Source: Euglena gracilis (Eukaryota). Taken from it: DNA of 64,000 nt. The notes beneath the pieces are model-generated. The model worked only from the letters and a program-made list of their open reading frames with translations. It did no database searches and was not told the origin of the DNA. Made by a program: the position numbers and the translations under genes. Positions 16,484 to 63,523 of the stretch are shown one piece after another; position 1 is the stretch's first letter; the number at the start of each line of letters is the position of its first letter. Location: contig CP154954.1 in assembly GCA_039621445.1 (NCBI GenBank), positions 3,725,715-3,789,714 on the forward strand, written 5' to 3'.

Positions 16484-16485
16484 GT

Positions 16486-40268: not shown

Positions 40269-40302
<34 letters not shown>

Positions 40303-41326
40303 GTTGGAAGATTTAATTTTTTTTTGTGTATTCAAAAGGCAAGCCGGGTGTATCTTTGTTGTGTGCGCTGTTCGTTGGGGACAGAAAACTAAAGATGCTG
40401 ATGCTTTTGTCAGACAGTCACTAGTTTGGGCAGATCCTGCCAGGATATTTTACACGTGCCAGAATGGCGCTTTTGTACACGTTTGTGAATATGAAGGTGA
40501 ATGGATCTCGTAAACTTCCCATGACACTTCACTGGGGACAGCTGAGCCCCTCATCAACAGTCCAGATTGTTTTGAGGTTTTTTTGTTGATTCAATTTTTA
40601 TTTTCCAGTGATGCTGGTGCACTACGAGTTCGTTTGTCAGCGATGTATGACAGGTGTGTTTATGCAGCAGCCGGACCAGGCAAATGAATAAATGAGCTGA
40701 CAGATGGATTGAATAAGGGATGCAAATACATTGATAACAGCTTTGACAATAATCAAGATGTTGATACCCTAAATCACCGTGCTTGTGCCTGGTCAACATG
40801 TGCAATTCTTCTCTCAAACTCTCTAAATATAGTTCAGCCTCATCGCGACATAAAAACAATATGTCAAGAATTTTAGAGATGATAGCGACAATAACAATGA
40901 CAGAACCCATGCAAATTCTCGAGTTGCCAGGAGCTCTTCAAAAATTCACCCCCAGCAGCGCTTATTCGGAATGGAGAAGATCTTTTTCGGGCCATTTTAG
41001 GCCATTTTGGCATCTAGTTCTGAGTTGATGTATGTGTTGGAATAGACATACGTAATGCAAAAACGGACTCAGGTTTTGGGTTGGACACAGGTATTTGGGG
41101 TTGAAGTGGATGCAGGCACCACTAGGGGCCAGGCTTCTCTTTAAGGAAGTGTGCACGTCCCTGGGGGGGTGCCATGGGCAGACAAGGGGGGTTGGCACTT
41201 GCGACCCCCCCCCAGGGGGAGGGTTTTGGGTGGGTAGCGCTGTAGCACACCCCTGGTGCCAAAGGTGCTGGGGCAGGGCAGAACGGGAATTTGTCCAAAC
41301 AGCCAGGGTGGTGGGTCCGGGGGGGG

Positions 41327-41395
41327 GTCGCTGAGCTCTTATCCCTTTATGGGTAAGCGAAGCTTACCCTGGGCAAAGGGGGGGGTCGGACCTGC

Positions 41396-41428
<33 letters not shown>

Positions 41429-44200
41429 CTCTAGGCGGTAGACTGGGGGGGGGGGTAGTGGGTGGTCGGCCGACTAGGCCTGGTCGGCAGCTAGTCGGCG
41501 AGACGGGGGGGGGGGGTTGTGGGTGGTCGGCGGATTAGTCGGCCGACCACCCACTCTAATGTAGTTACGGGCCAGTCTCGCCGACTTTTAAGCCCCCCCC
41601 CCCCATGAAGAAAATTGTATGCAAACTAGTCGATGGCTAGTCGGTGGTCATAAAAATGGTCTGTGGCGGGTCCAAACCACCCGGAAATGGTCCGGATGGG
41701 TCCAAATAAGTGCCTTACACCAACATAAACACCCTCAGATGGAAATCTTTGGTCGGTGGGGGTCGGTGGGCCCTTGATGGGGTCCGGAGGGGTAAAAAAC
41801 CAATGATGAAACAGAGATTACATGAAAATCCTTTAGAAATGCAAGCATTCTGCATCACGACAGGCTGAAAACTCCCCCCTCCACCCCCATCCGAGCCTCA
41901 GATAACAAAACCCTTCTGTGGTGGCAACATACTCCGGGGTTAAGTCGTTTTTGTGGCTCACTTTGGCTAGGCGGGGGGGGGGCCCCCCCCCCGCAACCCC
42001 CCCCCTCAAATAACAAAATCCCTTCTATGTTGGCAATATACTTGGAGGGCTAAGTCCTTTTTGTGCAAATTTTGACTTATATTGACTTATATACAACGGG
42101 GAGAGGTGTTCTTTTGCCAAAAGTGGCCCAAAATGGACATTTTGCCCCAGTTTTTTGCATATTCACCCCCGATGGGGGGGTTCTGGAGCCATTTGGGTGG
42201 GTTTTGACTGGTGTTGGGTGATTTGGACAAAAGTTTATTCTCAGGGGGGGGGGCTTTAAAGTCGGCGAGACTGGCCCGTAACTACATTAGAGTGGGTGGT
42301 CGGCCGACTAGTCGGCCGACCACCCACTACCCCCCCCCCCCCCGTCTCGCCGACTAGCTGCCGACCAGCCCTAGTTGGCCGACCACTTGGGTGGTCGGCC
42401 GACTAGTCGGCCGACCACCCACTACCCCCCCCCCCCCAGTCTACCCTCTCGCCCCCCCCCCCCCCCCTGGGTCGGGGCCACCTCGGGAACACGCGGATTA
42501 TCACCATGATCCCGGCTCCGTTCCCGCATTTTTTTTTCAGTCACGAGCGAATGGATTTCTAGCTTCTGAATCACCTCCGTTTGACCCCCAACTCCCCGCC
42601 AGGCCCGAGTTATTCACGCGCGAAGGGGTCCAAACTGTCGGTAGGATTGGCCCGCCCCCCCCCTCTTCCGACTCTGCCATTTCGCCGGGGTCCAAAAATT
42701 GGTCAAAAATCAATTTTTCGAAGATATCTCAAGAAAAAGAAGATTATTTCCGGAAATGTCAGTCTGACGAAACATACCCCCGGAGGCCCTCTATCGCCCC
42801 CCGTTCACCGTTTTGGCTGCCGACACGCTTGGCCTGTGTTCCGTCGCGCTTTTGCGGCCTAAAACGGCCATTTTGGGGAGTTTTTTTGGGCCTTTTTTTT
42901 CGGACAAAAATCAATTTTTTCAAAATATCTGGACAATGAAGCAAATTCAAAGGAAAAGTCCGGAGAGCAAAAATGAAGCCCTTGGAATGCCTTATCCAAC
43001 CATGGTTTACTTTTCCCCAAATTTTGGCCATTTCTGGGGCTGTTTTCGGAGTCAAAAAAAAGATGTCTCCAAAATATCTCGACAATGAAGCAAAATCAAA
43101 GCAAATGTCCGGAGACCTAAATTGAAGCCCTTGGAACGCCCTATCTAGCAGTATTTTGATTTTCCCGCAACTTCCTGTCTTGCCCGAGTTACGGCCATTT
43201 TACGGCCAATTTTGGTAATTTTGTACAGTTTTTGGCTTGTTTTGACTTGGCCGTTTTCGGGCATTTTTGGGTCAAAAGGTCGAATAAAAAACAGAAAATT
43301 TTTCTTGCCCGAAACGATGTTTTTTTGGCCTTCTGAACCCGGAAAACCTGTTTTTTTGAGCCGAAAATGAGCTTTTTTCGACCCCCTGGCCCCCGTTTTT
43401 TTTTTGCCTCAAAACCCAAGGATTCTGGGTCAAAAACAAGTAAAAAAAGTCGAAAAAATCCAACAGAATGTGTATGGAGTGTATGGAGGTATGGTTAAGA
43501 GCGAAGCTTACCCCTGGGCAAAAGGGGCGGGTCGGACCCGCCCCCCCCTGGGTCGGGGCCACCTCGGGAACCGGCGGATTATCATCAGGCTCCGTTCCCG
43601 CATTTTTTTTTTTCAGTCACGAGCGACTGGATTTCTAGTTTCTAATTTCTAGCTTTCAAATCACCTCCGTTTGACCCCCAACTCCCCGCCAGGCCCGAGT
43701 TATTCACGCGCGAAGGGGTCCAAACTGCAGGTAGGATTGGCCCGCCCCCCCCCCCCCCTTCCGACTCTGCCATTTCGCCGGGGTCCAAATATTGGTCAAA
43801 AATCAATTTTTCGAAAATATCTCGAGAAAACGGACATTATTTCCGGAAATGTCAGTCTGACGAAACATACCCCCGGAGGCCCTCTATCGTCCCCGTTCGT
43901 CGTTTTGGCTGCCGACACGCTTGGCCTGTGTTCCGTCGCGCTTTTGCGGCCTAAAACGGCCATTTTGGGGCCCTTTTTTTCGGACAAAAATCAATTTTTT
44001 CAAAATATCTGGACAATGAAGCAAATTCAAAGGAAAAGTCTGGAGATCAATAATGGAGCCCTTGGAATGCCCTATCCAACCATGGTTAACTTTTCCACCA
44101 ACTTTTCGTCTAGCTGGACGAGAAGTTGGGGGAAAAGTAAAACTAAAGGAGTTAAGGCCATTTTTCGGCTAATTTTGGGGCTATTTTCGGGGTCAAAAAA
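41327..44200 (-). mobile_element. Two partial tandem minus-strand copies of the asymmetric element
   Basis: Terminal motif at 41327-41370 and partially at ~43495-43515. Segments ~42470-43020 and ~43550-44095 are near-duplicates. Confidence 0.65.
41437..42445. mobile_element. Long-TIR (foldback/MULE-like) element
   Basis: Inverted arms of ~165-200 bp built from GGTGGTCGGCCGACTAG motifs. Flanks ctctaggc / ctctcgcc match 6/8. Confidence 0.75.
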
Positions 44201-44248
44201 TCGATCCCCAAACCCCCCCAAAACCTAATTTTTTCCACCTTCCAAAAA

Positions 44249-46980
44249 CTTAGGCGGCCTAACTCGCACTTAAGGTTTTCATTTTTAGCTTGCGCTTTGG
44301 CGCAAATTTTCGATTTCTTTGAGACCCGGCGGTAGAACCCACCCTTTTGACCCTCTGGTTCCGCGGAGACCCTCCACGGTGGCGTGTGCATCATTTTCCG
44401 ATGTTGGGACCTGGGGAACAGGCCCATTTTTGGTGTTTTTCGGCCTGTGCACCATTTTGAAAAAGGTCCAAAACCCTGGGTTTGACCGCCGGGACACGTG
44501 AATTTTCCCAAAAATGGGCCGAAACCCCCGTTGTGAGTCCCTCGTTTTTGAAGCCTCAGCTGTGTTCCCCGGATGGCGTCACACAGTCCAGGTGACAATT
44601 GGCCCTTTTTGTTGTTTTTTTGGCTCTGTGATATGTCCGTGAAGAGTTTGGCTGCTGAGGCATCCAGAGGGTGGACTCTACATGCACGTTGTGAAAAGTT
44701 GGAAAAAACGGCATTTCACAGAGTTGTGATCCCTGGGTGCTTGAAGCGCGAGGAGCGGTGCAGCGGGAACCACCCTGGTGGGGGGTTGGGGGGACTGAGG
44801 GCAAGCCTAGGGACCTCTCCCAACGTCTGGTGAGCAACGCCAGGCCCCACACTGCTGGGCACAGAAGGCAATGGTTGAGGACATTTGCGCTTAAGCGCAA
44901 ATTTTTAGCTTGTGCTTAAGCGCAAGTTAAAAAATTTGCGCTTAAGCGCAAGCTAAAACAGAAGCCGCTGAGTTTGTGGGAGTCCCTCTGATGTGTTACG
45001 GTGTGTCGGGGGCCCCTCTCTGAACGGCCAGAGTGCGGGCTTGGTGAGGAAATACCTTGCGCCGAAGCGCAAAGGACATGCCTACATAATGCACTGCTTG
45101 TTCATCCACATTACACGTCAGCCGCGTGTTTGCATTTCTCAGTTTTTTGTATGATGGTTTGCGCTTCGGCGCAAATGTATTTCCTCACCAAGCCCGCACT
45201 CTGGCCGTTCAGAGAGGGGCCCCTGACACACCGTAACACATCAGAGGGACTCCCACAAACTCAGCGGCTTCTGTTTTAGCTTGCGCTTAAGCGCAAATTT
45301 TTTAACTTGCGCTTAAGCGCAAGCTAAAAATTTGCGCTTAAGCGCAAATGTCCTTTTAAATGGCAGATGTATTTGAATGCGTTCGTGCTGTGTGAGAAGG
45401 TGGGGGATAGGGGAGAATGGTGAGGGGGGTTTGTACGCTGCTGTGCCAGAAGCTGGGTTGGTGCTTTTGAACTATTCAGGTGCTGGGGAGATAGTCGTTG
45501 TTACAATAAGACGAATGGTGGGCGGTAGGCTGTGGTGCCTCAGTGACCTTGCACTCGGTGCACAAAGTGGGGTTTTTGGGGATGTTGACAGAAAGGCTTT
45601 TTCTGCTGAACAATGCCCTCCATCTGCCTGGTGGCATGTGGCTGTCTGGTGGGTTGCAAAATACCGAAGAAAGGTGTGTCAGCATGTCTTCCCTTCTCCG
45701 CCGTTGTTGATGGGCCCTTTCAATTTCTCAATTCCATTCGCTCATCCCCAAAGTTCTGTGCTTCAAATCCTGGGCGAGGAAAGGGGGGTGACGAGCTTCT
45801 TTAAAACACCCTTTCGACGCCTAAAACTGTTTCCTCGGCTGTGGTTCCCAGGGTTTATCTGGTACCTGTTCTTTTCCACACAGGTATTTTCCGACTTTCA
45901 AAAGTCGGCCAAAGAGAAGGGCCCCTCAGGCACGCTTAAGTGCGAGGCAAGTGGGAGGAACCACCGGCACTGGAAGTTGGGTTTACAACGCATAGGACAA
46001 GACACGTCTGGATATCAAGGAGTTGGTGGTTGCTTTCACACACCAGGGGGTTGGCTTCCTGCCCCAGGCAAGGCTTCCCTTCATCTGAGCTCTGTCCGCT
46101 CTGGTGATGAGATGCTTCCAGGACTGCTCTCTCCACCCGCAGTGATAAAAATGGGAAATACAACTTGATGGCTGTTGCGCCAAAGCGCAATGGGTAGGCT
46201 CATGAAGAATGGAAATTTAAGAGTTATATTGCGCCAAAGCGCAAGTAGAAATACATTTTTAAGATTGTCAAAGCAACGTGGCTCTTGCGCCGACGCGCAA
46301 TGTTGACCAGTTTTAAGTCAACGTGACTGAGAGTAGGCTTCCGTCCCCCTGTTCTGCATTTTTGTGCTCTATCTCCTCTGGTGTTGTTACTCTACCAGGG
46401 CCGTTTCTCTCCCTGCGTTGTGAGATAAGTTTTAAACAGTTACATTTGCGCTTCGGCGCAAGCCATGTTGCTTTTGCACGTTTAAAAAATGTATTTCTAC
46501 TTGCGCTTTGGCGCAAGGTAACTCGTAATTTTTCATTCTTCATGGGCCTACCCCTTGCGCTTTGGCGCAAATGGAAACACACGTTGACTCAAAAGTTGTT
46601 ATCATTGTTCAAATGCGGCAATGGTCACCCACGTGTTGAATCACAAAAAAATCAAAAATTTGCGCCAAAGCGCAAATGGTTTTATTTTTTGTAATTTCAA
46701 AAATTTGCGCCAAAGCGCAAATGAGTAGTGGAGTCCCCTCGTTTCATCACCCGCCGCTGTGTGTTCATGCACACTGGGCCCCGGCAGCGCTGTACCCGTG
46801 GACTGTGCAGTTCCCAGTCGTTGCTTTCGTCCCCAGGCCCTGGGGTGCAAGGAGAGACTGTTTTCAGACTGTCTCGAGTCTCAGGCCACGGTGGTCGGTG
46901 GTCAAACTTTTTTTGGGATTTGCGCGTCGGCGCAAATTTACAGTCACTTTCAAAGCTAAGTGCGAGTTAGGCCGCCTAAG
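44249..46980. mobile_element. Non-autonomous TIR element, CTTAG...CTAAG ends, 5-bp TSD
   Basis: 24-bp perfect TIR CTTAGGCGGCCTAACTCGCACTTA, with aaaaa on both sides. Many TTGCGC-N4-GCGCAA palindromes. Confidence 0.88.
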
Positions 46981-47940
46981 AAAAATTCAACGTTTTCTCA
47001 AAAATTTGATTTTGCGAGGTTTTGGAAGCATAAAATGCTATTGAAAATCCAAAAAAAACCCAAGAGAAAAAATATCAGTAAAATTCGACTGTGCCAAAAT
47101 TTGGTCGAATTTTTTTGACCTTCGTTTTTTTCGCCCCCTCCTAGAAACTAAACCCTCCCCCCAAATAATACCCCCCCCCCAAATAATACCCCCCCCCCTC
47201 GGGGACGACTTCGGCGACCGAAATAACCCCCCCCCCCTGGTTTCGGGCTGACGGCCCAGGTTTTGAACTGAAAATGTGGGTAAAAATCACAATCTCTGAC
47301 AATAAATTAAGAAAAAAAATCGACTTTTCTGGATCATCTGACCTTCAAAAACATGGTAAATTTCATAAGAAAGTACAAAAAAATCACCCCAAAGGGGGTT
47401 TTGGCGCTATTTTGGCTCCTACGGGACTTCGAAGAATTTCGAAAATTTTGGGGTGCTATTACCCCCCCCCCCAAATAATACCCCCCCCCCTCGGGCCAGG
47501 ACTTCAGGCGAAAAAATAATACCCCGGGGGGTATTATTTGAGGGGGGGATATTTGTGGGGGGTTTACCAATTTTTAAACCTGAAATTTTTGAGTTTTTTT
47601 TGTGACAAAATGTGGGTTTGCATCAAAAAATCATGTATTTTGTGTTCATTTTTCAAAAAAATTTCAAAAATTATCCCCGGCCAAAATCCTCGTTTCCCCA
47701 AAATTGGTGAAAATGCTGTGGTGGGTCAACCCCCCCCCACCAGGGGTCGGACCCCCCCCCCACCAGGGGTCGGTTTTCGACCCCAGTGCATTCTGACCAA
47801 GCTGGGTTTCCCCTTAAAAAATGGCATTTTCAGACCCCCAGCAGGGCGATGCCGCTGGATCCAAGGTCATGGTTGCTGGTCAGCAGTGACCCCCACCAGC
47901 CTTTTCCCTGGACTCCCATCTTGGGTTGTCTTGCTTGAAC

Positions 47941-50900
47941 CAGGGTGTGAAGTAGAGCTGAGCTCTTTGGGAGACCACCCCGGCCTGCCCGGCCCGACCC
48001 GGCCGGCGGCCCGGCAGCCTGGCCCGGCCCGGCCCGGCCCCGGCCGGCGGTTGGGCCCGGCCCGGCCCGGCCCGGCATGGCCCGGCCGGCGGCTCGGCTG
48101 GCTGCCCAGCCCGGGCATGGGCCGGGGGGTTGAAAAACGCTCATTTTCGGCTCAAAAACACTTTTTCCGGTTCCCGGGAGCAAAAAAAACATGGATTTGG
48201 GCAAAAAAATATTTCGATTTTTTGACTTTTTTTTGGCCCAAAAATGACCCAAAGTCCATAGGATTCGGGTCCAAAACGGGGGGGGGGGGCGGGGGTCAAA
48301 AAATAAAAAAACGCCCATTTTCGGCCCAAAAACACCTTTTCCGGATCCGGGAGGTCAAAAAAACATGGTTTTGGACAAAAATTTTCTTTTCGAAATTTTT
48401 CGACTTTTTCACCCAAAAATGGCCAAGTCCACCAGCCAGGGGACGGGCCCCAGCCAGGGGGCATGGGGGCGGGGTCCAGGTCGGAAAATTTTTTTGCTCA
48501 AAAGCACTTTTTTTTGATGTTTCAAGAGCAACTTTTTTTTAAAAAGTTTGCATCCCGACCTGCCTCCCGACCCCCCATTGCCCAGCCGCCCTCGGATCCC
48601 CTGCAGGTTCCCCGAATACCCGAAACTGGCCCAAAATCGCACAACCAGGCCCCGGGAACCTCAAAAAACGGTCACCCCCCCCCCCAAACCTCATGATTGA
48701 CCCCCTGGGTCCCAACTCCTCGTCTAGCCCGAGATACGGCCAATTTACGGTTTCAGGCACCGGACGGGCCCGAAATGGCCGAAACTGGCAAAACTGGCAC
48801 AAAACCACATCACATCACATCTCGGCCTGGGCGAGGAGTTGACCAAACCGCGCATACCGATCGATCAGGCGTCCCAAAGTTGTGGAATGAGGTCCTGTTT
48901 GCTTTTCTCTTTTGAATTTTTCGATTTTTTGACCCAAAATGCCCCTGCAATTTCCCCGAAAAAAAACGGTACACAACTTTTTTGCTTGGGCCATATCTCC
49001 GGACTGGCGGGCAGTTAGGGCTATTATGGGGGTGCGTTGGAAACCTGGGATCGTCTCCTAGCCTATAGGCCATTCACTTTGAGAACCCGGAAATTTGGTC
49101 ACAACGATAATCCTCAGGCCTCCCTGCCTACTCAGGGGGCAGGGGCGGGGGAGGGGGGGGACTCTCCGGCCGGGGTGGTAAGCTTCGCTCTTACTCTAAA
49201 GAGATAAGAGCTCAGCGACCAGGGTGTGACGTAGAGCTGAGCTCTTTGGGAGACCACCCCGGCCTGGCCCAGCCTGCCAGCGGCCCAGCGGCACGGCCCG
49301 GCCCGGTGCGGCCCGGCGGCCCGGCCCGGCCCGACCCGGCCCGGCCCGACCCGGCCCGGCCCGGCCCGGCGGCCCGGCGGCCTGGGAAAAACGGTCACTT
49401 TCGGTTCAAAAGCAGGTTTTCCGGGTCAGGGAGGCCCAAAAACATCGTTTTTTGGCAAATAAAAAATTAAAAAAATTTCCATTTTTTTCGACTTTTTTTG
49501 GCCCGGTTTTGACTCGAAGTCAATGGGTTGGTGGCCCAAAATGGGGCACTGACGGTCTCGAAAACACTTTTTCTGGGTCCGGGAGGTCAAAAAAACATGG
49601 TTTTGGGCCATTTTTTTTGAATTTTTTCGACTTTCTGACCCAAAAATGGCTCAGTCCACTGGCCAGGGGGACGGGCATGGGGGGGGGTCCGGGTCGGAAA
49701 ATTTTTTTTCCTCAAAAACACTTTTTTTGATGTTCTGAAGTGAAAAAAAGTGTTTTTGAGCGAAAAATTTTTTTCAAAATTTTGGGTCCCGACCTGCCTC
49801 CCGACCCCCCCCCCCTCGCCCAGCCGCCCTCAGACCCCCGCATGGGCCCCCGAACACCCAAAACTGGCCCAAAATCGCACAAGCAGACCCCAGGAACCCC
49901 AAAAAACGGTCAACCCCCCCCCCTAAACCTCATGATTGACCCCCTGGTTTGGGTCCCAACTCCTCGTCTAGCCCGAGATACGGCCAATTTACGGTTTCGG
50001 GCCCTGAACTGGCCAGAATTGGCAAAACTGGCCCCAAACCCCCAAAATGGCCATATCTCGGGCTAGGCGCATACCGATCGATCGGGCGTCCCAAAGACGT
50101 GAAATGAGGTCCCCCATCACTTTTCCTGAAGTCCGCAGCGTTTTCGAGATATTTTGAATTTTTTGATTTTTTGACCCCAGCCCGGCCGCCCTCGAACCCC
50201 CGCAAAACCGGCCCAAAATCGCTCAACCAGACCCCGGGAACCCCCAAAAAATGGTCAACCCCCCCCCCTAAACCTAATGATTGACCCCCTGGTGTGGGTC
50301 CCAACTCCCCGTCTAGCCCGAGATACGGGCAAATTACGGTTTCGGCCCCAAATGGGCCCGAAATGGCCAAAACTGGCCAAACTGGCCCAAAACCCCAAAA
50401 CGGCCGTATCTCAGGCTAGGCCAGGAGTTGGCCTAAACCGCGCATACCGATCGATCGGGCGTGAAATGAGGTCGTGAAATGAGGTCGCCATCACTTTTCC
50501 TCAACTCCGCAGCGTTTTCAAGATATTTTGAAAATTTCGATTTTTTGACCCCCAAAAAGCCTGCAATTTCCCCGGAATAAAAAACGGTACACAACTTTTT
50601 TTGCTCGGGCCCGATCTCCGGACTGGCGGGCAGTTAGGGCTATGACGGGGGTGCGTTAGAAACCTGGGACCGTCTCCTAACCTATAGGCCATTCACTTTG
50701 GGGACCCGCAAATTTGGTCACAACGATAATCCTCAGGCCTCCCTGCCTACTCAGGGGGGGGGGGAGGGGGTCAGGGGGGGTCCCAAACCGGGGTGGTAAG
50801 CTTCGCTCTAATTCTAAAGAGTTAAGAGCTCAGCGACCAGGGTGTGACGTAGAGCTGAGCTCTTTGGGAGACCACCCCGGCCCGGCCTGGTAAAAACGCT

Positions 50901-52397
50901 CATTTTCGGCTCAAAAACAGTTTTTCTGGGTCAGGGAGGTCAAAAAACATCGTTTTGGGCAAAAAGAAAATTTTCAATTTTTTTCGACTTTTTTTGACCC
51001 GGTTTTGACCCAAAGTCAATGGGTTGGTGGCCCAAAACAGGGTGCTGGCGGTCGAAAAACGCTCATTTTTGGCTCGAAAACAGTTTTTCTGGGTCCGGGA
51101 GGCCAAAAAACATCGTTTCGGGCAAAATTTTTTTTCGATTTTTTTCACCTTTTTTTCGTCCGGTTTTGACCCAAAGTCAATGGGTTGGCGGCCCGAAACA
51201 GGGCGCTGGCGGGTCGAAAAACGCTCATTTTTGGCGCGAAAACGCTTTTTTCGGGTCCGGGAGGTCAAAAATCATGGTTTTGGGCAATTTTTTTTTCGAA
51301 TTTTTTCGACTTTTTGACCCAAAAATGGCTAAGTCCACCGGCCAGGGGGGCGGGCGGGCCCCAGCCAGGGATGGGGGAGGGGGCCGGGTCGGAAAATTTT
51401 TTTTCCTCAAAAACACTTTTTTTGATGTTCTGAAGTGAAGAAAAGTGTTTTTGAGCGAAAAAATTTTTTTCAAAATTTTGGGTCCCGACCTGCCTCCCGA
51501 CCCCCCCCCTCGCCCTGCCGCCCTCGGACCCGCCGTAGTGGTCCCCGAATACCCAAAGCTGGCCGAAAATCGCACAACCAGGCCCCGGGAACCCCAAAAA
51601 ATGGTCAACCCCCCCCCCCTAAACCTCATGATTGACCCCCTGGTGTGGGTCCCAACTCCTCGTCTAGCCCGAGATACGGCCAATTTACGGTTTCGGGCCC
51701 CGAACAGGCCCGAAATGGCCAAAACTGGCAAAACTGGCCCAAAAGCCCAAAACGACCGAATCTCGGGCTCGGCGAGGAGTTGGCCCAAAGCGCGCATACC
51801 GATCGATCGGGCGTCCCAAAGTTGCGGAAGGACGTCCTGTTTACTTTTTCGCAACTCCGCAGCGTTTTCGAGATATTTTGAAATTTTCGATTTTTTTGAC
51901 CCCAAAATGACCCTGCAATTTCCCCGGATAAAAAAAAACGGTACACAACTTTTTTGCTCGGGCCAGATCTCCGAACTGGCGGGGAGTTAGGGCTATTATG
52001 GGGGTGCGTTGGAAACCTGGGATCCTCTCCTAACCGATAGGCTATTCACTTTGGGGACCCGGAAATCCAATCACATCGATAATCCTCGGGTGTCTTTGCC
52101 TACTCAGGGGGGGGGGGGCCGGGGACGGGGGGGGGGGGGGGGGGGGTGGGGGGCGGGGGGGGGGAGGGCAGGGGGTCTCCGGTCTCCGGTGGTAAGCTTC
52201 GCTCTTACTCTAAAGAGATAAGAGCTCAGCGATAATTTTTCGGGTCCGGAAATCAGGTCACATCGATAATCCGCGGGGGCCCGAGCCTACTCAGGGAGGG
52301 GGGGGCGGGGGGCGGGGGGGGGGGGGCGGGGGGGCAGGGGGGTTTCGGGGGGGTGGTAAGCTTCGCTCTTACTCTAAAGAGATAAGAGCTCAGCGAC
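47941..52397 (+). mobile_element. Head-to-tail array of three asymmetric elements plus an extra terminal module
   Basis: Units 47941-49219, 49220-50837 and 50838-52233, then 52234-52397. Each unit starts CAGGGTGTGA(c/a)GTAGAGCTGAGCTCT and ends GGTAAGCTTCGCTC..AAGAGCTCAGCGA(C). Confidence 0.85.
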
Positions 52398-55300
52398 CCC
52401 TCCTTGATCTCTTCCCTTTGTTTTTCTTGATTGGGTTGCCTTGACGCCCGGGACAGCACCTGCAGAGATGCCATTCTTATGTGATATGCATCGCATGGTC
52501 TTCAAAGGTCTTCTGTTTTTGTTAAGGAGTGGGGTGTCTCTCCCTTTGCAGAGATGTGGAGAAGGCAAACCTGTGGAAGTACTCGGTGTGCAACCCCATC
52601 AAGCGATCCTCCAAAAAAGATTTAAGGTCCACAAGAAGTAAATGAGATGGTTCCACTCCAACTACATCTTTTAAGGTGACGTTGGAGTACTGCTTGTGGA
52701 TGGAAGACATTTTTGAGGAGGTCGCACAAATTTGCATGAACAATATGAAGACTCCCCAACAAAAGAACGTGTGTGTTAAAATTTGGGGCTTTGGCGATTT
52801 GGCACCAGGGTGTGTTAAAGCACTACCCACTCAAAACCCAACCCCCCCGGGGGGGGGTCAGGGCAGAACGGGAATCGGCCGAACAGCCAGGGTGGTGGGT
52901 GGGGGGGGGTCGACCACCCCCCCCCCCCTGCATGGTGGGTGGGTGGGGGGGGGCCGACCCCCCACCTCTTTCCGTATTTCTGGGAGCACCAATTTTTGGT
53001 CCTCCAAAAAAATTTTCCGGCGCCTTCGGCACCGGGTGTTTTTTTGACCCATTTTGGGAGGTCGAAAGAGCCCAAACCCCCATGGCACCCACCCCCCAAG
53101 GGAGGTGCGCACTTCCTTAAGACGAAGCCTGGCCCCTGGTGGTGCCTGTATCCACTTCAACCCCAAATACCTGTGTCCGCCTGAGTCCGTTTTTGCATTA
53201 CGTGTGCCATGCATACATTCTCGAGTTGCAAGGAGTTCTTCAAAAATTTCCTGAGCATTCTGAATACAGATTTTTAAGAAACAGAAACATAAAAAACTAC
53301 ACACAACGATCAAAAGAATAGAAAAAGCGGAAGAACACCCCCACCCTTGTCAACGGCTTGTCTAGCCAATCGGCCAATCTGATTTCCAATGGGCTGTTCA
53401 AGAGGGGGGGTCTGCTAGCATCCCTAACTTGTAGGGAAAAATTCCCAATGGCGCGCACAAAGTGCCAGAATTTCTTACCGATGCTGTTTGCATTCCTTTG
53501 CAGTTTTTTTTTTGCTTTTTGCTTGCTTCCCTATGTTTTCTGTTGTTTCATTTTTATTGTCATTTTTTTCTGCACGGAGTTGTCTCCCAAAGATTAAAAA
53601 TATGTCCCTCTAAAAGAGAACATTCCGAGGCAGGATTTCTATCCAACTTTTGCATTTTGCCATTGTTAATTCAGGTCCGTGTTTTTTTTGCATTTTTTAT
53701 TTTTGCCTTTTATTAGATGTGTTTTCTTTTCCCTTTCCCATTTTTTTGTTTTCTGCAAAAAGTTTGCCCCCGGCAGCAATTTTTTTTCGTGTTCTCACCT
53801 TCTTCAAATTTGGGTGGCCATGTTGTTTCCCTCCCCTCCCTGCACCTACTCTTAACAATTTCCACATTTTCCTGTTTGTTTTTGTATTCTTGTGCTTGCT
53901 CTGATTCAGCATTCTGAATTGCTCGCTTGATCTGTTTCCTGATGTTTCGACAGCGCAGTTTGCCTTTTGTTTTGTGTATGGTGTTTCGGAATTTTTTTCC
54001 GGGACGTTGGCCCTGATGTTGGGGTGGGTGGGTTGTGGGTGGGTGGGTCGATCACCTGGGGTTATGGGTGTGTGGTTTTTTTCAAAAGCAAAAAAGTGTA
54101 TGCGTGGGTTGGGCCTGGCAGAAAGTTCCCCCGGTGGGTGCAAGTGAAGGTATGATCTCGACATTTGCAGCTTCATGATCAGGGAATTCATATCTGCAAG
54201 CGGTTTTCACAACATCTGCGTGGGTAGGCGTTTGAATTTTTTTTTTACGTCCAGGTTTTCACACATGTGTGAAACCGCATTTGAAACATATTTATTTCCT
54301 ATTTTCAGGTTCCGGTGCAGGATATTATCTATCCAGAAATGGATTGGGGCCAGCTCCTCACTGAACTCTTGTGGTACACCTGGGAGAAGAGCCCAACGTC
54401 ATCAACCAAATTAGCTCAAAATGTGAAAGTCGATAGTTATTGATGGATGAAGATGCGAACAACAAATTAACCCCCTCCAATAGAAGTGCAGGTGCGCTTA
54501 GCGAACCGCTGCTCCGGCGTCGGGGGAGGGGGGTGCCTTCGGCGGCAGGGGGTGTGCTTTTATTTGCACCCTGCGCTTGTGGTGGACCCATTTGTCTATT
54601 GGGGGTGTTTACCCCTTGTGAAGTGCTTAACCACCCACCTAATAGAAGCGCGGGGCCGCTACAAGTGCACCCCCCCATTTTGATGGGATTTCTAAAGGAA
54701 ATCAACAAAATCGCGCAGGTAGGGTCCAAATAGAAGCACCCCCCCCCCCGCCACAAGCGCACCCATGCTTCTATTAGGGGGGCGGGGTTTATTATTGTCC
54801 GTGGATCGTCCACTTGCTTTCACAGAATCATTTTCTTGCTTGCTTGCTTGCTTGCTTTCTTTTAACAGACAATGGACATTGTAGAACTGCTCCCAATGCC
54901 AACCAGAGGTTTTTAAATTTGGTGACCCCAGGGAGGGTGGGTGGGTGCAGCCTCCTCTGGGGGTGGGGGTCGAGCCGAATGGGTGCACCCCCCCGGAGGG
55001 GGTGTTCCTCTATTTTTGGCACAAAGCACCGAATGATTTTTGGACCCCAAAATTGACCCCAAACGTGGGCCCCCAGGGGTTTTTTTTTTACACTGGAGGG
55101 AACTCTAACCCCCCCCCCCACCCGGGCGTCCAGCCAGCAAGCAGCTTTTTTCCAGCCAGCCAGCTCCCGACCCCTGGGGGGTCCGCTAAAATTAAGTTCC
55201 GGCTGGACCGAAATTTTTTTTAAAAAAATCAAAAAGGACCAAAATGGAATTTTTGGGTGGTTCTGGGTCTGGGTCTTCGCCTCAGAACTTTGGCTGAAAA

Positions 55301-55861
55301 ATGCCAACCCGGCCGAATTTGGACTTTTTTTGTCTGTTTTTGGGGCCCGGCCGGACCCAAAACCAAACCACACCTCCACCCGGGTTTTTAAAAAGACTTT
55401 TGATGCCAAGTCAGTTTTAATTTTTTGCCAACAGCTCAGTTTTTTTTTCTTTAGGTGAAGTTATGGCCGCCTCTTCCTACAAAAAAAAAACGGGGGAAAT
55501 TTGCGAAAGTTCAATGTCGGCCAAGTCCCCTCACCCCTGTTCTGTTTCGTTTTGACGTTCTTTCCTGAGAGGCTGCCCGCTGGGTCCCACATTGTCAGAT
55601 TTTTTTGTCCAAAATGGAACCCAAATAGAAGTTCGAAGAAGTTTTTTTTTTGAGACGGAAGGATTTGGTGGCGGCAGGATTTTTTGTGAAGAACGTTTGG
55701 AAAAAATTGGCAGACTGTGAAAAAGGAATTTGAATATCATGCGGCACAAAATTCGCCACAAAAATGCACAAAAATGCACAAAAATGCACATTATTTGAAC
55801 AAATGCTCAAGGATGACACCCACCGTGTGCCACCCCCGTCCCATCAGCTGGGGGGGGGGGC

Positions 55862-58800
55862 TGGGCCCGACGATGTGGTGCTGGCGGTGCGGTCTGCCCG
55901 GGCCCGCATTCTGCTGAAGGCGGAGTCCTCCGGCCTCGCGCCGCGGCTGGAGGCGTGGAACCGGCTGCTGCTGTTTGACAACCCTTGGAAGTCGACGCTG
56001 GTGTTTGGCGCGGGTGTGGCTGCCTGCCGACCCCCGTCGGGCAGCTGCGGTTGACCGCTGCACAAAACAAGCGGACTGCTGCCGGCTCTGCAATTTCAGA
56101 CACTCCGTGGCAGAAAACAGACACGTGCTCTGAAATCTGCAGGATGTCTTTCCCTGTGTTGTCCGCGAAAAAAACTCATTATTTTGAAAAGAGGGGCTGA
56201 AGTTGTGGCAGTCCTCAGTCACACAGGAGGGTTGTGCCAGGTGTTGCTCGAAACCAATAGGATCACCTGCATCAAGCTGGGCGTGATTGGTTTTTTTCCA
56301 GGTTCCGTGTTGTTTTGGTTCTCCATGCACACCTGGTATCATTCTGCGTTTGCCTTCCGTCCCCTCGTGCAGTGATGGCGTTCAATGGGGTGATGGGGCA
56401 TTACCGCCTGTGGAGCCAGGACCGCACTTGCGTGTGAGAAGTCAATAAATCCATCATCGGAACAGTGTAGCGCAATTCTCAATCAGGCTTTTCTGGAAGT
56501 CCGCACCTTCAGGGGTGGGTGCTACAGGCAGTCAGGGGTGGGGTTGTGGTGCTGCAGCGCCTGTCTCTGAAAGAAGCGGGGCATTTTAAGGGAAATTCAC
56601 CTGGGTCAGCCAGGACCAATACCGACCCCCTCCCCCCCAGGGTGCCTGCGTTGGGTGGGAATCCCACAGCACTCACAGCACAAGGAATCCCGGGTTGAAA
56701 AAGCCTGCAATATATTTTTTTCACAAAGGAAGTTTAAGCATTTCTGTTTTTTTTTGCAATGCTGAAACAGGATTCTCAAACATACAATTATTATATGTCC
56801 GCTGGTCAAGTAGGTCGGACCCCCCCCTGGAGGTGGTGTCCAACTGTGCTGAACCGGGATCCGGTCCGTCCTGCCCCACCATTTTTCTTAACCCCAGAGT
56901 TGGTTATAGTGAACATTGTCTGGCCACCCGTGTGGCCCTGCTGCGGTGCCGGGCTTTTTTGCCTTGTTCGTTGCCAGCTATGTGATTGGGTACCGGCAGC
57001 GCGATTTCTGGACTGAAAAGGTGTGCCGGGTCCGCCACCGATTCTCCGGGTGCACCTGGGTAGGTCACATGGATGCATCCCGAGATGCACACCCGGACCC
57101 ACTCCCCCGGCCCAACCTCCTAGATGCCTAGATACCCTGGATCACACTCAACCCCAACCTTTCCTTAACCCCACCAAACTTATCCACAACAGCCCTAATC
57201 CAAACCCTGAAGAATATCGGAACGAAATTGAAAGGATAATCCAGCTGACTGTGGGACGGGTCCTCTGGCGCTTGGTGACTATCAATTCACTGTCCTCAGG
57301 AGTGCACCAGAAAAGCAACTTCTGGGAACGAACCGCATATTTGGTAGAAGGAGTCATGGGCAGGTTTTGATATTATTCCAAACTGTGCCCCACCAAGACT
57401 TTCCTGGCAACAAACACGCTGGTTTTTCATTTCTTCTTCTTTGTTTATTGCAAGCGTGTTCTGTTTGGCCAAAGGCAACACTGGGTCAGCTGGATTGGCC
57501 TTGGCTGTTAACGCTCTGGCAACCAACAGCACACTTAGAAAACTGAACGTTGCTTGCGAGCACACTACTGGGCAACAGCTCCAGACAGTTCGTTCCTGAT
57601 AGTTCACAATTAACTTTTTTGCCAGGGACATTTGTCTTCTTGTTTGAACCTGTCTTTGTCCCACTTAGGCTGCTCTTCCTAAAAAGTCAATAAACTACCA
57701 CCATTTTGCCACTTAGTTTTAAGAAAGCACCGTGGATTTTAAAAGGTTTGCAAAAATGGCAGTTCTTTGCTTGCTTAGAGGCAGCATGTTGCATTGCTTG
57801 ACAACACTAATGGATGCCATATGCACTTTGTGGAATTCCAAGACTGCTTCAAAATTTCAAAAGAGGTGTTCAAAAGCAATGATAATTTTGTGTTTCAGAC
57901 TTTTTTAAAAGGGGTCAAAATGATCAAATGGGGTTTCTCGCTGGATCTCATCAACTTGGTTTTTCGAAGGAAATGCTCCAGGAACTGATGCCAGATGGGG
58001 AATGTGTTGTTTGGCAGACATGATATTTCAAACTGAATATCTTCGCATGACACACCAAACTCGTAAGCGTTGCAGCTGTGTTACAGAACCCTGCCTCCCA
58101 AACCTAGCCACACCACGCCACCTTGTCAGGTGTGCAAACCATCACATATGAAATCAGAACGAACCAAGAAAACCAAGCAAGAACTTGGGAGGTGTGCCAT
58201 CCCCAATGATATACTGATATGCACCTGTGTATCCAAAAATGAAAATGTTTGTGTTTTTTCCATTTGCATTAATCCATAATTCTGAAATTTCCATATGCGA
58301 TTGTTCTCAACCAACTACTGTCAGATTGATTAAACCCCCATCAGCGATTTGTCCAACCTTTTAAATTTATAAGTTTTTTTTTTAAAGGGATGTTGCTTTG
58401 ATCTGCCAGGGGATTGTATTTATTAGGGAACTGCAAACTAGTTCAGTGCAAGTTCATGAATGATTCACACATTTGACACACACACATTTAATTTCCCCCT
58501 ATTTTTCCAGTGGTAACCTCTTTTAAGGTGTCTGCTCTATCTTTTTTTGACAGGAGATTAAGCTTTTTGGGTTGTGACGAAAATTCTGGTATTTGGTATT
58601 TTGGGCTTTTGCTTCTCTCGGGATTGGGAAACATTTATTGGGCTGCGGGTTTCACAGCCCAGGTGTGAGCCGCACTCATTTGGACACTGCGCTGTTGACC
58701 ACTGCAGCACACCCATACGATGTATCCGGCATTCCCATGCGTTCCACCACACCCCAGGGTGATGGTCAGCACCGCGTGGCTGAACTGGCGGATCATTGAC

Positions 58801-61800
58801 CGCTTCCTGTCCCTCGCCACCTGGCAGCACCCCCGCTCCAGTGTCCTGTCCAGGCTTTTCTCTTTTTTTTTTATACAGGAAGTGCGCACAGTTTTCACAG
58901 GTGAGCGCTATGGGCATAGGGGTTTTTTTAGTCGTGGACCCCCGGGGGGGGTAGGGTGGGTGGGTCTGGCCAAGCCCCCCCCCCCGGGGGGTCCCCCTGG
59001 AGGGGGGTGGGATATACGTTTCGGCGCCGAAGGCGCCGAAAAAGTGCTATTTTTAGCACTTTTCGCGATTTTCGGCCATTTTTTGTTGGTCCCCCGGGAC
59101 CCCGCCCCCCCGGGGGGCCCACAGGGGGGGGGTGGGTTGGGGGGACCCCCAGGGTTCGATATAAGGAGGGCGTACATGGTTTAGGTGGGGGGGTGTCCCC
59201 CCTCCCCCCCCCCCCCCTCCTGGCCCGCAGGGTGGTCCGGACCACCCCCCCCCCCCACCTGCAAGGGGGGTCCGGACCGACCCTCGGGGGCAAAAATTGA
59301 CCCCCCCAAAAAGGGTCAATTTTTTCCTCCGGCGCTTCGCGCCGAAAATTTTTTGCATTTTTGGCACATTTTTGCCCAAAAAGTGCCCAAAATGGCACTT
59401 TTGGGTCGTTTTGGGGGTCCAAACCTTTTGCGGGTTTTGAGGGGGTCAAAAATTTTCGGCCACCCTGACCGCGCACCTGTTTAGGTGGGGGGGGGTGTCC
59501 CCCCCCCCCCCCCCCCCCCCTCCCTGGGCCGCAGGGGGACTCCCCCCCCCCCCCCCCACCTGTCCTTATATCGAACCCTGGGGACCCCCCCGGTCTTAAA
59601 GAAACCCCTGTATGGGCAGCCAGGGGGGTGGGGCACTTTAATTCTAAAGCACACCCCCGGCGCGGAATATGCCAGGGGCCCGAAAATATCCATTTTCAAA
59701 GGAAATTTGCCTGGGTCGGCAGGGACCGGGGTTCAAAACAGACTCCGGGGGGGGGGGGGCCTGCTCTTGGCAGGCACCCCATCGCAAAAGGCACACCCCC
59801 TCCCCCCCAGGTTGGTAAAAAGGAAGCCTGGTCCTGTCCCTCGTCTTCTTCACCCTGTGCTTCCTCCTTGCGCTCATCCTGCCCGGTTGGGTGATGTTGA
59901 ACTTCATCCTGGCGGTGTACCTCACCCTCGTTGTCGGTCTGGCATGCTGTGCCTCGAGGTCATCCATATGGATCGGCTTCTTCCCAAAGCCAGTCTGCAG
60001 TGATGATGGCTCCATGCTGTGTTTTTCTTCCGCAGTTTTCGCTCGCTATCCGATTATTCGGTGCTTCACTTATGCCTCCCATTTGGATGGCGTGCGGCTA
60101 CGGGCAAAGCCTTTCGTGCGACCCTATGTGGGTGTGTATGTCCCCACCTTCCACACCCACAACACGCGTGAGGGGGCACACACAAACACACATGCAAGCA
60201 TGCACACAGGGACATTGCTAGTTCTTATTTGTTGTGCCGGGGAGCCATTTTTTGGTGGTTTTTTTTGGAATGATGACCCGAGGGAGGGGATGGTAGCGAT
60301 TTGTAATGGGACGATCCATTTTCCATTCATTCAAATGGACAAATTTTAAACCACATTTTTACTTTAAACTGCCTGGCACTTTCTCGAATCATGGTCACTA
60401 TCCTGACCCCCATCCCAGCCAAATTTTAAACCACATTTTTACTTTAAACTGCCTGGCACTTTCTCGAATCATGGTCACTATCCTGACCCCCATCCCAGCC
60501 CCCCCCCCCCCGTTTACCTGGATTCAAGCTCTCTTGTTCGCCTTTCTTGCGTATTGGGTTTCCTGACGTTCCCTTCTTCCTCCGCACCCCGTCAGGCCGA
60601 CTTGTCGTGACGGTCCACTGTGCCCACGGTTTCCGAAGCTCAGACTACATATCCACCGACCCTTACGTTGTGGTGATGGTTGGCGAACAAATGGACCGGG
60701 TTCAGGGTGGCTTCCACAAAACACACGACACACACACACACACACACACACCCACACGCACATTGATCCACACAGGCTTTACAAGCACAGACACACAACC
60801 TCATATAGCCCAGACACAGCCCACACAGATGACTGACAGGCTCGCTCATGGACTTTTTCTGTGCTTTCCCCCTTATTCAATAAATCTGTTTTCATTCTCA
60901 TTTTGCACGTTTTCATTTTGCAATTGTTTTTATGTTGTTTTTTTTGCATTCAACTGGCGCACGATGACACTCTGCTGGTACAAAGTCCAAGATGAAGGAT
61001 ATGCACCCCCTGTTTGAGGAGGTGTGATGCAATAGGTACTTGGCAGCATGGCAGCATGATGGAACAGTGCTCTGTGTGTGTGGGCAAGGTTGGATGCACC
61101 GTGCCGAACGTTGTTTCAGACCATGGAGTTCATCGTGTTCAGTCCCAACACACGTGTCCAAGTATTCCTGTGGGATTGGGACCGGTCTTCATCAGACGAC
61201 TTCCTTGGGGAGGGGCAGTTCCAGACCACAGGTGTGCGCAATGAACTCCTCCAGTGATGTGGCTCATAACCCCAATATGTGATGGAGAATTGGGGGAGCT
61301 TCGCGTTCAGTTGTGGTGGTCAGGATCTGTCCTCAGAGGTCTTTTCCTCCCGCCTTACATATTCCATGCTGGAGGGACACCTTTTGCCCAAGATCTATAG
61401 CGAGCATACATGTGAAATAAGGCACTCAAGGGGCAAAGCCTAACCTTCCCAAAAACATTCACCTTCAAATAGCCGGCAAATTAGGCATGACCTCCTTGGG
61501 GAAGTGCGGAACCCAAGGTGTCCCTCAACGTCCCTTCCTCTTCCTCCCTCCTCGGTGTTCTCCGAGGGAGTGTGTGAGGAGTCAATTTTTCAGCCTAAGA
61601 TTTCAAGTGCCCGTGGTCAAGGCGTGGCGTTCCAGATGCGGAAGGAGGGGACTGACCTCTTGAAAAACAGGCAAAGGGCTCTGATGTTTGTTGGGGCCAC
61701 TCGTTTGGGGGCCCAATTTGGATTTTTTTTTTGCAGATTCAAGTTTTTTTCAGAATCAGCCGGTGTTTGTTCATTCCAGCAGGGACTTTTTAAGGTTGGT

Positions 61801-62306
61801 GACGCAGGGAGGATGGCTTAGGGTTTCAATTTCGGGTGTCAAATATTGGGCTCCAATTTTTTCGGTATTTTTGCTCCAAAAATACAGAAATTCTTTTTCT
61901 GGCGGATACCCACTTGATCCGACGGGGGTTCCCCATCAGAGGGTGGGTGGGTGGGTTGGTGTCCCCCCCCAGTCTAAAAAAAAAACCCTGTTTCTGTTCA
62001 GTGCCTTTTTGTTGGGCAACCTCCACCGTCGGGGGTTGCTGAGTATGGCAAACCGGACCCACAGGGAACGCGGGATTTTGGGACCTAAAATCTCTTTGGG
62101 AACGCGGGTCACATCCGAAAGGTGTGACCCGAATGACCAGCACGTTGTATTTCACACCCCACCCTGTCTACACCCTCCCCCTGACCAGGGGCCCCCGGCG
62201 GCACCGCCAGCCGGGGCAATGTCTGGGTGGACATCCGCCCCCGCCCGGCCTGCTTTGCCGACTACAAGCGGTTCGTGTCCGGCCGCGTGCGGGTCAGCTG
62301 GCGGCT
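55862..62306 (+). CDS. Multi-exon membrane protein: MCTP/PRT_C-like transmembrane region followed by a C2 domain (both ends unresolved)
   Basis: Exons ~55862-56025, 56269-56337, 56906-56947, 57201-~57240, ~58757-58847, 59836-~59932, ~60503-60699, 60980-61021, 61120-61231, 62189-~62306. Peptides: LLLFDNPWKSTLVF, IIDRFLSLATWQHPRSSVLSLVFFTLCFLLALILP, then C2 motifs GRLVVTVHCAHG..STDPYVVV..RTKSKMKDMHPLFEETMEF..VQVFLWDWDRSSSDDFLGE..VWVDI..SGRVRVSW. A possible last exon ends at the 62922 stop. Confidence 0.8.
58917..59610. mobile_element. hAT-like MITE (same family as 32622-32900), nested inside the intron
   Basis: TSD tatgggca at 58909-58916 and 59611-59618. Ends TAGGGGTTTTTTTA / TAAAGAAACCCCTG. 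Confidence 0.9.
59150..59580. mobile_element. hAT-like MITE, CAGGGTTCGATATAAGG family
   Basis: 17-bp perfect TIR. TSD gggacccc at 59142-59149 and 59581-59588. Confidence 0.92.
61022..61119 (+). other. Conventional GT-AG intron in the C2 domain
   Basis: GAG|GTGTGA...TTGTTTCAG|ACC joins PLFEE|TMEF in frame. Confidence 0.8.
61232..62188 (+). other. Conventional GT-AG intron
   Basis: CAG|GTGTGC...CCCCCTGACCAG|GG. The phase-1 join continues the C2 domain. Confidence 0.7.
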
Positions 62307-62939
62307 GGACGATGTTCCCCAGGCTTTTTTTAAATTTATTTTGTTATGGTAGTCCCCCCCCCCACGGACTTTGGGAAGCGGAGGGGGGGGGGGGCACTTT
62401 TTCCTGGGCCCAAACCCACCGCCAATACCCCCCACCCACAAATCCCCCCAGGGGTCCATGAAACCACCCACCCACCCAAAACCCCTCCAAAATTGGCCCA
62501 AAACCTTTGAAGTTTTTTTTCCTGGTCTAGCCTTCAGCCAGGCAAAAGACTGATCCGTGGTGCTCCTCAACCCCCCGGGGGGGGTCCAGCAGCCTAAACC
62601 CACCCACCCATTCTTGACCTCCCTGGGGGTGGGTCACAGGTCACACAGTTGTTAAGTGAATCTCTGGCTCCTGCCCCTCATCGAATGGGCACGCAAGGGG
62701 AAGACATTACCGACACCCGGGGGGGGGGAGGGGGCTTTGGGGTGGGCAGTGCTTTGGTCCCCCAGCAGAAAGCACCAGGGTTTGGCAATGGCCGTTTTCC
62801 CGGGAGATTTGCCCGAGTCCAAAGAACCCCGCCGTTCAGTGCCCACTAACACCAGCAGGCACTCCGCAAAGGGCGGCAAAAAGAAGCCTGACCTCACACC
62901 GCCCTCCGTTGCTCCACTGTGACCGATGGAGGGGGGCCC

Positions 62940-63523
62940 CAGGGTTCGATATAAGGAGGGCATATGGGGTTTAGGTAGGGGGTGTCCCCCCCCCCTGGAC
63001 TGCAGGGGGGAGAAAATTGCACCGTGCAATTTTTGCAATTTTGTGCAATTAATTGCACATGGCCTGGGATATTTTGTTTTGGAAAATATCATTTTTTGAT
63101 GCAATTGAGAACTTGCCGTGTTTTTTTTTTTGCTGGGAAATTGATGTACGTAGTGAAATTTCCGTTCAAAGGCTGTTTATTGTTGGTTTACTCAGTGTGC
63201 AAACCTTATCTTGAGTCCCCTGCCCAGGTGTCTTTGATACTTTCTCAACCAGGACTGGAGGGGGTCTGGTCCACCCCCCGGGGTCCGTACCGCCCCCGGG
63301 GGGATACCTGGAACCCGCAAAAGGTAAATTTTTTTCCGGCGCTTTGCACCGATTTTTTTTGCATTTTTGACAAATTCGTTTTGGGGGTTAAATCTTTCGG
63401 CCCGGCGCTTCGCACTGGGCTGACAATCCGTCACCTGGGCCACGCAATTGTTTAGGTGGGGGGGTGTCCCCCCCTTGACCAGGGGGTCCGGACCCCCCCC
63501 ACCTGCCCTTATATCGAAGCCTG
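62940..63523. mobile_element. hAT-like MITE, CAGGGTTCGATATAAGG family
   Basis: TIR 16/17. TSD gggggccc / gggagccc. Confidence 0.85.

What the first reader, a model, noticed from the sequence alone, without database searches (positions are those of the whole stretch)
58843..59838. Triple-nested MITEs forming one intron of a host gene
The intron element 58851-59830 contains 58917-59610, which contains 59150-59580. All three have perfect 8-bp TSDs. This shows the system operates in a non-transposon gene. Since each layer has paired ends and a TSD, recursive inside-out splicing is conceivable.
Basis: partly seen in the sequence, partly recalled or inferred. Interest (0 to 1): 0.75.

Follow-up and report, generated by a model that had tools for sequence, protein, structure and literature searches.

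The report
Nested transposons spliced as Euglena intron
Three small transposons, one inside another, sit in a coding exon of a Euglena gene and are missing from the mature RNA as one block, which fits the old idea that Euglena's odd introns began as transposons; nothing here shows that the layers are cut out one after another.

Summary
The nest is real: three inverted-repeat elements, each with a perfect 8-bp target duplication. An empty copy of the middle family elsewhere in the window supports the nesting. The block is an intron (58848-59835, 988 nt = outer element + one duplication) of a 22-intron membrane/C2-domain gene. A Euglena transcriptome protein reads across it, and 4 RNA reads carry the joined junction. 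It is a euglenid nonconventional intron and meets the published code (N3-CAG...CTG-N5|purine), whose 3+5 spacing equals the duplication.

Recursive splicing is not supported. The middle layer begins TAG and the inner has C at its acceptor; both changes abolished correct splicing in published knock-ins. No intermediate was seen, but the read table could not test it. Against my reading, an inner-family copy in the 3' UTR with a C acceptor is also scarce in RNA.

Such introns are common in ordinary Euglena genes and a MITE origin was proposed in 2014. I found no paper stating the 3+5 = 8-bp link. This scan noted that link, and another three-level nest, on other DNA of this genome.

The parts
58758..58847 (+). 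Upstream coding exon of the host gene
   Evidence: Matches EukProt protein P0001 aa 350-379; covered by RNA reads; gene model
58848..59835 (+). Nonconventional intron, 988 nt = 3 nt of left duplication + outer element + 5 nt of right duplication
   Evidence: Only code-compliant cut that reproduces P0001; 4 junction reads in run X22
58843..58850 (+). Left copy of outer 8-bp target duplication (GTCCTGTC); donor cut after its 5th base
58851..59830 (.). Outer MITE-like element (278 bp when empty), ends CAG...CTG, supplies both splice signals
   Evidence: similar ends on intron 62317-62895
58909..58916 (+). Left duplication of middle element (TATGGGCA)
58917..59610 (.). Middle MITE-like element (255 bp when empty); left end TAG instead of the family's CAG
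   Evidence: empty relative at 32622-32900
59142..59149 (+). Left duplication of inner element (GGGACCCC)
59150..59580 (.). Inner MITE-like element, 431 bp, perfect 18-bp inverted ends; followed by C at spacer lengths 4, 5 and 6
   Evidence: many different flanks in run X20
59581..59588 (+). Right duplication of inner element
59611..59618 (+). Right duplication of middle element
59831..59838 (+). Right copy of outer duplication; acceptor cut after its 5th base, exon resumes at G 59836
59836..59936 (+). Downstream coding exon (hydrophobic, probably membrane-spanning)
   Evidence: P0001 aa 377-411; RNA depth 7-8 at 59897 in X21 and X22
22203..62925 (+). Whole host gene model: 584 aa, 22 introns (15 GT-AG, 7 other), hydrophobic middle, C-terminal C2 domain
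   Evidence: 471 of 478 residues identical to P0001; Pfam C2 on homologues P0002 and P0003, E about 1e-15
32622..32900 (.). Empty copy of the middle family inside a GT-AG intron of the same gene; fully code-compliant (CAG, CTG, purine)
62940..63523 (.). Inner-family copy just after the stop codon (7 of 8 duplication); C acceptor at N5, G at N4; scarce in RNA

Best explanation
A small non-autonomous cut-and-paste transposon with CAG...CTG ends landed in a coding exon and duplicated 8 bp. Euglena's nonconventional splicing cuts 3 nt before the CAG and 5 nt after the CTG, so it removes the element plus exactly one duplication and restores the frame (removal shown; exact register inferred from the code). 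Once this was an intron, its interior was free space: a second MITE inserted, then a third into the second (order inferred from the duplications and the empty copy). The 988 nt are most likely excised in one step defined by the outer ends alone, the inner layers being passengers (inferred). The mobilising enzyme is probably a hAT transposase (inferred; not matched).
For: Duplications and ends. Empty middle copy, 226 of 254. P0001 reads through the junction and two homologues align without a gap there. Four X22 reads run from 58851 into sequence matching 59840 onward at 19 of 21 (compared by eye). RNA depth in bin 59476-59759 is 0.52, 0.14 and 0.24 against 8, 7 and 2 reads at 59897. An X20 contig (59728-60028) bridges the right junction and carries variants also seen in RNA (59897: 3 of 8, 3 of 7, 1 of 2 reads), so an element-bearing allele is expressed. 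The outer layer meets every term of the code; middle and inner each fail one (code). Other ends of the middle family read CAG, so its TAG looks like tolerated decay. A hAT-like transposase gene with an 8-bp duplication lies in the window.
Against: One-step excision was not observed. The 15 joints shown were all from the DNA-like run and 169 were hidden. The junction reads and P0001 differ from the window at a few positions, so they may come from an allele whose DNA was not seen. Equilibrium folding pairs the outer ends in the minimum-energy structure but with probability only 0 to 0.17 in the ensemble over 4 flank lengths, against 1.0 for the inner ends. The inner-family copy in the 3' UTR seems removed despite a C acceptor (depth 0-4 inside, 6-14 in nearby exons of X21 and X22). 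The code covers only 61.2% of nonconventional introns. The TAG could be an assembly error. The window's transposon ends (TAGCAA) do not match these MITEs.
Confidence: 0.8

Rival explanations
1. Optional recursive splicing: the inner element (best stem, correct CAG/CTG) or the middle block is sometimes cut first at a non-standard acceptor, and the outer intron follows, giving nested circles.
For: Inner ends pair with probability 1.0 and -30.8 kcal/mol against -13.1 for the outer. A same-family copy in the 3' UTR is scarce in RNA despite its C acceptor. Any compliant insert was spliced in knock-ins. If the TAG is an error the middle layer is fully compliant.
Against: CAG-to-TAG and acceptor-C variants were defective in vivo. 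A purine started the downstream exon in all 55 introns surveyed. The nested inner has no purine at N4-N6, unlike the UTR copy (G at N4). Excised introns were reported as full-length circles (review passage). No intermediate seen here, though not testable.
Confidence: 0.12
2. Obligatory inside-out splicing, as in a true twintron: the outer intron cannot be removed until the inner ones are.
For: Only the nesting itself and the weak predicted outer stem.
Against: The inserts lie 66 and 212 bp from the outer ends and interrupt no splice signal. The empty outer element folds no better (probability 0.0). Introns of about 1 kb are ordinary: mean about 520, maximum above 4600. Both inner layers fail the code.
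Confidence: 0.03
3. Polymorphic insertion, not an intron: the spliced-looking transcripts come from alleles that lack the element.
For: P0001 differs from the window at 7 of 478 residues and the junction reads at 2 of 21 bases. No DNA record spanning the left junction was shown.
Against: An X20 contig joins the element to variants seen in RNA; reads with the window's own base are present at 59897 (5 of 8, 4 of 7); the intron interior is nearly empty in 3 of 3 RNA runs. Retention puts a stop in frame. The outer ends fit the code exactly.
Confidence: 0.05

Closest known systems
Euglenid nonconventional introns, code 5'-N3CDG-/-CH'GN5-6|R (Nomura et al. 2025, PMC12501133; parts 1-4 of 6 read)
   Same: CAG at +4, CTG at -8 to -6, paired ends, purine at exon start, mixed with GT-AG introns in one gene.
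   Different: The paper leaves the origin open, suggests MITEs, and does not mention target duplications of transposons, hAT, nesting or recursion (term counts). Here the intron is still a recognisable element plus one 8-bp duplication.
E. agilis ACOI 323 gapC intron 4 (Milanowski et al. 2016, PMC4770533; passages and section 8 part 1 read)
   Same: Recently gained nonconventional intron with 8-nt direct repeats at its junctions.
   Different: Read there as a trace of double-strand break repair. Here dispersed families, an empty copy and three separate 8-bp duplications point to transposition.
MITE-origin hypothesis (Milanowski et al. 2014, PMC3935182, passages; review PMC11282704, passages)
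   Same: Inverted ends and duplication-like repeats taken as signs of MITE origin.
   Different: No element family, duplication length or superfamily is given in the passages seen; this locus supplies a concrete case.
Introner elements of Micromonas and others (review PMC11282704, passages)
   Same: Non-autonomous DNA transposons spliced out precisely, using element ends and the duplication.
   Different: Those use the spliceosome and 3-nt duplications in Micromonas; here 8 bp and a non-GT-AG pathway.
Twintrons and stwintrons (Euglena plastid twintrons recalled; fungal stwintrons seen as abstract starts)
   Same: An intron-like unit inside an intron.
   Different: In stwintrons the inner intron interrupts an essential splice signal and must go first. 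Here none is interrupted and the inner layers fail the code.

Membership tests
Euglenid nonconventional intron (outer layer) | Absent from mature RNA, without GT-AG ends at the frame-restoring cut | tested here: met
   Junction reads and depth; P0001. A GT-AG alternative (58848-59826) does not reproduce P0001.
Euglenid nonconventional intron (outer layer) | N3-CDG at 5' end, CHG-N5/6 at 3' end, purine at exon start | tested here: met
   GTC CAG ... CTG GTCCT | G
Euglenid nonconventional intron (outer layer) | Base-paired ends | tested here: inconclusive
   End duplex -13.1 kcal/mol, within the -10.4 to -18.3 of five other nonconventional introns of the gene; ensemble probability 0-0.17 in the full intron
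Euglenid nonconventional intron (outer layer) | Released as a full-length circle | not testable with these tools
   Needs circle RT-PCR or RNase R sequencing
Euglenid nonconventional intron (middle layer) | CDG at +4 to +6 | tested here: not met
   TAG at 58917; CAG-to-TAG defective in knock-ins. A single-base assembly error is not excluded.
Euglenid nonconventional intron (inner layer) | Purine at exon start after N5 or N6 | tested here: not met
   C at N4, N5 and N6; C variants defective
MITE | Short, non-coding, terminal inverted repeats, target duplication | tested here: met
   431, 255 and 278 bp when empty; ends and duplications
MITE | Dispersed, many copies | tested here: met
   Middle and inner: relatives in window, summed contig depth 4e5-7e5 against 20-56 in unique bins and mixed flanks at 59150 (qualitative only). 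Outer: only similar ends found; depth over its right part is low.
hAT superfamily | 8-bp target duplication | tested here: met
   3 of 3 layers. Not exclusive: E. gracilis Merlin also makes 8 bp, but Merlin ends begin GG.
hAT superfamily | Ends shared with an autonomous hAT transposase element | tested here: inconclusive
   The window's hAT-like element 6859-11810 (Pfam Dimer_Tnp_hAT E 5e-4, 20.3 bits, under the 21.4 cut-off; atlas DUF659/ZBED1 at 0.92) has different ends; no whole genome to search. The hAT end consensus YARNG is recalled.
Twintron / recursive intron | Inner unit excised first, intermediate detectable | tested here: inconclusive
   No RNA joint among 15 shown; 169 hidden
Twintron / recursive intron | Inner unit interrupts a signal needed by the outer (obligate type) | tested here: not met
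   Inserts lie 66 and 212 bp from the outer ends

The most novel reading that the evidence does not exclude
Euglena's nonconventional machinery treats any CAG...CTG transposon in a pre-mRNA as an intron, so nested MITEs act as nuclear twintrons. At this locus the inner element or the middle block would be excised first and release its own circle before the outer intron goes. Since the ends are symmetric and about half of random targets put a purine at duplication position 6, such nested splicing could be common genome-wide.
Probability: 0.12. Interest if true: 0.75.

Novelty: new member of a known kind. Interest (0 to 1): 0.38.

Why it matters
The origin and the removal mechanism of Euglena's majority intron class are open. 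This locus is a clear young example in which the splice spacing (3+5) equals an 8-bp transposon footprint. It also suggests why the older consensus has the same pyrimidine|purine pattern at both junctions: both junctions are copies of one target site (inference). If general, the second splicing system works as a scar-free transposon eraser and explains both intron gain and tolerance of a heavy MITE load. The triple nesting adds little by itself, but it gives a ready knock-in substrate for asking whether the machinery picks the outermost compliant ends or any paired ends.

Tried and rejected
No whole genome was held, so no genome-wide family counts or transposase match. RNA depth over 58908-59475 (2-9) is not taken as retention: loose ends there have mixed flanks, agreement about 0.5-0.8, as expected from other copies. 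No indexed run was on record as RNA; four raw RNA runs were listed by species label and three were laid. A metagenome scan for the exon end found 0 matches. Folding did not discriminate: outer-end pairing was 0.0 native, 0.0 empty and 0-0.45 in 12 shuffles of the middle block. Cross-pairing of outer left with middle right gives a code-compliant cryptic intron but a weaker duplex (-8.2 against -13.1); not followed. The transposase fragment found no homologue among 1392 candidates and no meaningful PDB hit. Merlin was considered and thought unlikely from its GG ends; P elements were not tested. Among the 6 nonconventional coding-region introns checked, only this one keeps an 8 of 8 duplication; the other five match 1-3 of 8, so the gene does not show that older introns arose this way. 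Seven paper searches gave no paper linking the code to 8-bp or hAT duplications, or reporting nested nonconventional splicing. The library lacks most subscription papers; Guminska 2021 (circles) was seen only as cited, and no supplements were read.

Full report
Observation. Their inverted ends match at 10, 12 and 14 of the first 14 bases. A scan of the window for 8-bp repeats around AG-type inverted ends gave 11 candidates, against 1, 0, 0, 0 and 0 in five locally shuffled windows. With the inserts and one duplication removed, the middle is 255 bp and the outer 278 bp. A copy of the middle family at 32622-32900 aligns to the emptied middle at 226 of 254 columns and has the inner target site once. 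This supports insertion of the inner element into a pre-existing middle element. In run X20, whose kind is not on record but which covers introns evenly, summed contig depth over the middle and inner elements is 4e5-7e5 against 20-56 in unique bins, and 18 contigs reach the inner left end from mixed flanks. I use this only as a sign of dispersed families, not as a copy number.

Host gene. One exon (55869-56012) found 3 proteins among 141 candidates; the best is EukProt EG_transcript_7506, 100% identical over the query. That this prefix belongs to the Euglena gracilis transcriptome is recalled. Mapping it gives a gene from 22203 to about 62925 with 22 introns, 15 GT-AG and 7 other, coding 584 aa. 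The model equals P0001 at 471 of the first 478 residues; after that P0001 reads into a retained intron. The two homologues carry a C2 domain (E 3.7e-16 and 1.6e-15). The last exons were placed with homologue P0003 as guide, and intron 61022-61107 is uncertain.

Splicing of the nest. P0001 reads HPRSSVLSLVFF across the site and both homologues align there without a gap. This needs removal of 988 nt, the outer element plus one duplication. In run X22, 4 reads leave the window after 58851 and continue with letters matching 59840 onward at 19 of 21 (compared by eye). Mean RNA depth in bin 59476-59759 is 0.52, 0.14 and 0.24 in X21, X22 and X24, against 8, 7 and 2 reads at exon position 59897. An X20 contig (59728-60028) bridges the right junction and carries variants seen in 3 of 8, 3 of 7 and 1 of 2 RNA reads, so at least one element-bearing allele is expressed without the element, if the runs share a strain. 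The junction reads and P0001 differ slightly from the window, so an empty allele is not excluded.

The code. Nomura et al. 2025 (PMC12501133, parts 1-4 of 6 read) define N3-CDG...CHG-N5-6|purine by knock-in. The outer layer fits: three bases, CAG, then CTG, five bases, G. Three plus five is the length of the duplication, so the cut falls after base 5 of each copy and one whole copy is rebuilt. Because both junctions are copies of one site, the symmetric pyrimidine|purine consensus of Milanowski et al. 2016 would follow from such an origin; this is my inference. That paper also found 8-nt direct repeats at a recently gained intron and read them as break repair. A MITE origin was proposed in 2014 and repeated since. 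Seven searches gave no paper stating the 3+5 = 8 link or naming hAT; coverage is limited to open papers. Of the six nonconventional coding-region introns checked, only this one keeps a full duplication; the other five match 1-3 of 8.

Recursion. The middle layer begins TAG. Single changes in CAG, including this one, abolished the functional transcript in vivo. Other ends of this family read CAG, so the T looks like later decay that was tolerated, unless it is an assembly error. The inner layer has C after spacers of 4, 5 and 6; C was defective in both tested introns and a purine started the downstream exon in all 55 surveyed. Neither insert interrupts an outer signal. Results against my reading: the inner ends form the strongest stem (probability 1.0 in 4 of 4 flank lengths), while the outer ends reach only 0-0.17, although they pair in the minimum-energy fold. 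An inner-family copy behind the stop codon (62940-63523) has depth 0-4 inside, against 6-14 at nearby exon positions in X21 and X22, though it too has C at N5; it does have G at N4, and strain differences or an empty allele could explain it. The code covers 61.2% of such introns, and intron 37740-37914 of this gene has CAT...ATG. Direct evidence is lacking either way: the 15 joints shown had no RNA reads and 169 were hidden. Nonconventional intermediates are also rare in published long-read data (PMC6221363, passages).

Mobiliser. An element at 6859-11810 has an 8-bp duplication and TAGCAA ends. A minus-strand piece matches the hAT dimerisation domain just under the cut-off and another resembles DUF659/ZBED1 clusters. 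Its ends differ from the three MITEs, so hAT is likely but not shown. Merlin also makes 8-bp duplications in E. gracilis but its ends begin GG (PMC8101967, passages).

Earlier notes of this scan report the same 3+5 geometry at many other loci of this genome, two-level nests and one three-level nest. I reached my reading before opening them and did not check their loci.

Verdict. A real, spliced, young nonconventional intron built from an 8-bp-duplicating MITE, with two later passengers. One-step excision is most likely (0.8); optional recursion is not excluded (0.12). It is a new member of a known kind and a good example for an open origin question. Interest 0.38.

Noticed in passing
window 6859-11810 (-): hAT-like element with an 8-bp duplication, TAGCAA ends and a transposase gene in pieces; a 126-bp MITE with its own 8-bp duplication (9050-9175) sits in the coding frame with code-compliant ends on the minus strand. 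Splicing not checked.
   Followed up: partly
window 62940-63523: Inner-family MITE in the 3' UTR, 7 of 8 duplication, C at the N5 acceptor and G at N4; scarce in RNA while both flanks are covered.
   Followed up: partly
window 32622-32900: Fully code-compliant middle-family MITE inside a 10-kb GT-AG intron; a better test of nested excision than the finding itself.
   Followed up: partly
window 37740-37914: Intron with CAT...ATG at the CAG...CTG positions and strongly paired ends (-18.3 kcal/mol); outside the published code, yet P0001 reads across it.
   Followed up: partly
window 60700-60979: Nonconventional intron retained in transcript EG_transcript_7506, which loses most of the C2 domain; RNA depth at 60847 is 0 in the three RNA runs laid.
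   Followed up: partly
window 62317-62895: Last coding intron has ends like the outer element but only 3 of 8 duplication left; perhaps an older insertion of a related family.
   Followed up: partly
window 47900-52400, also near 29690 and 32000: Array of related long elements with GCTGAGCTCTT-type ends; the same end motif abuts inner-family fragments at 29693-29773 and 32012-32361, suggesting further nesting.
   Followed up: no
window 32361 and 58917: Two MITE ends read TAG where family members read CAG; possibly a C-to-T hot spot.
   Followed up: no
window 12263-16486 (-): Open frames with PHD-finger (E 1.9e-4) and C2H2-finger (E 4.8e-4) matches and a 332-aa frame without Pfam match; probably other mobile elements.
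   Followed up: no
window 60342-60498: Exact tandem duplication of about 80 bp inside intron 60132-60595, seen by eye.
   Followed up: no
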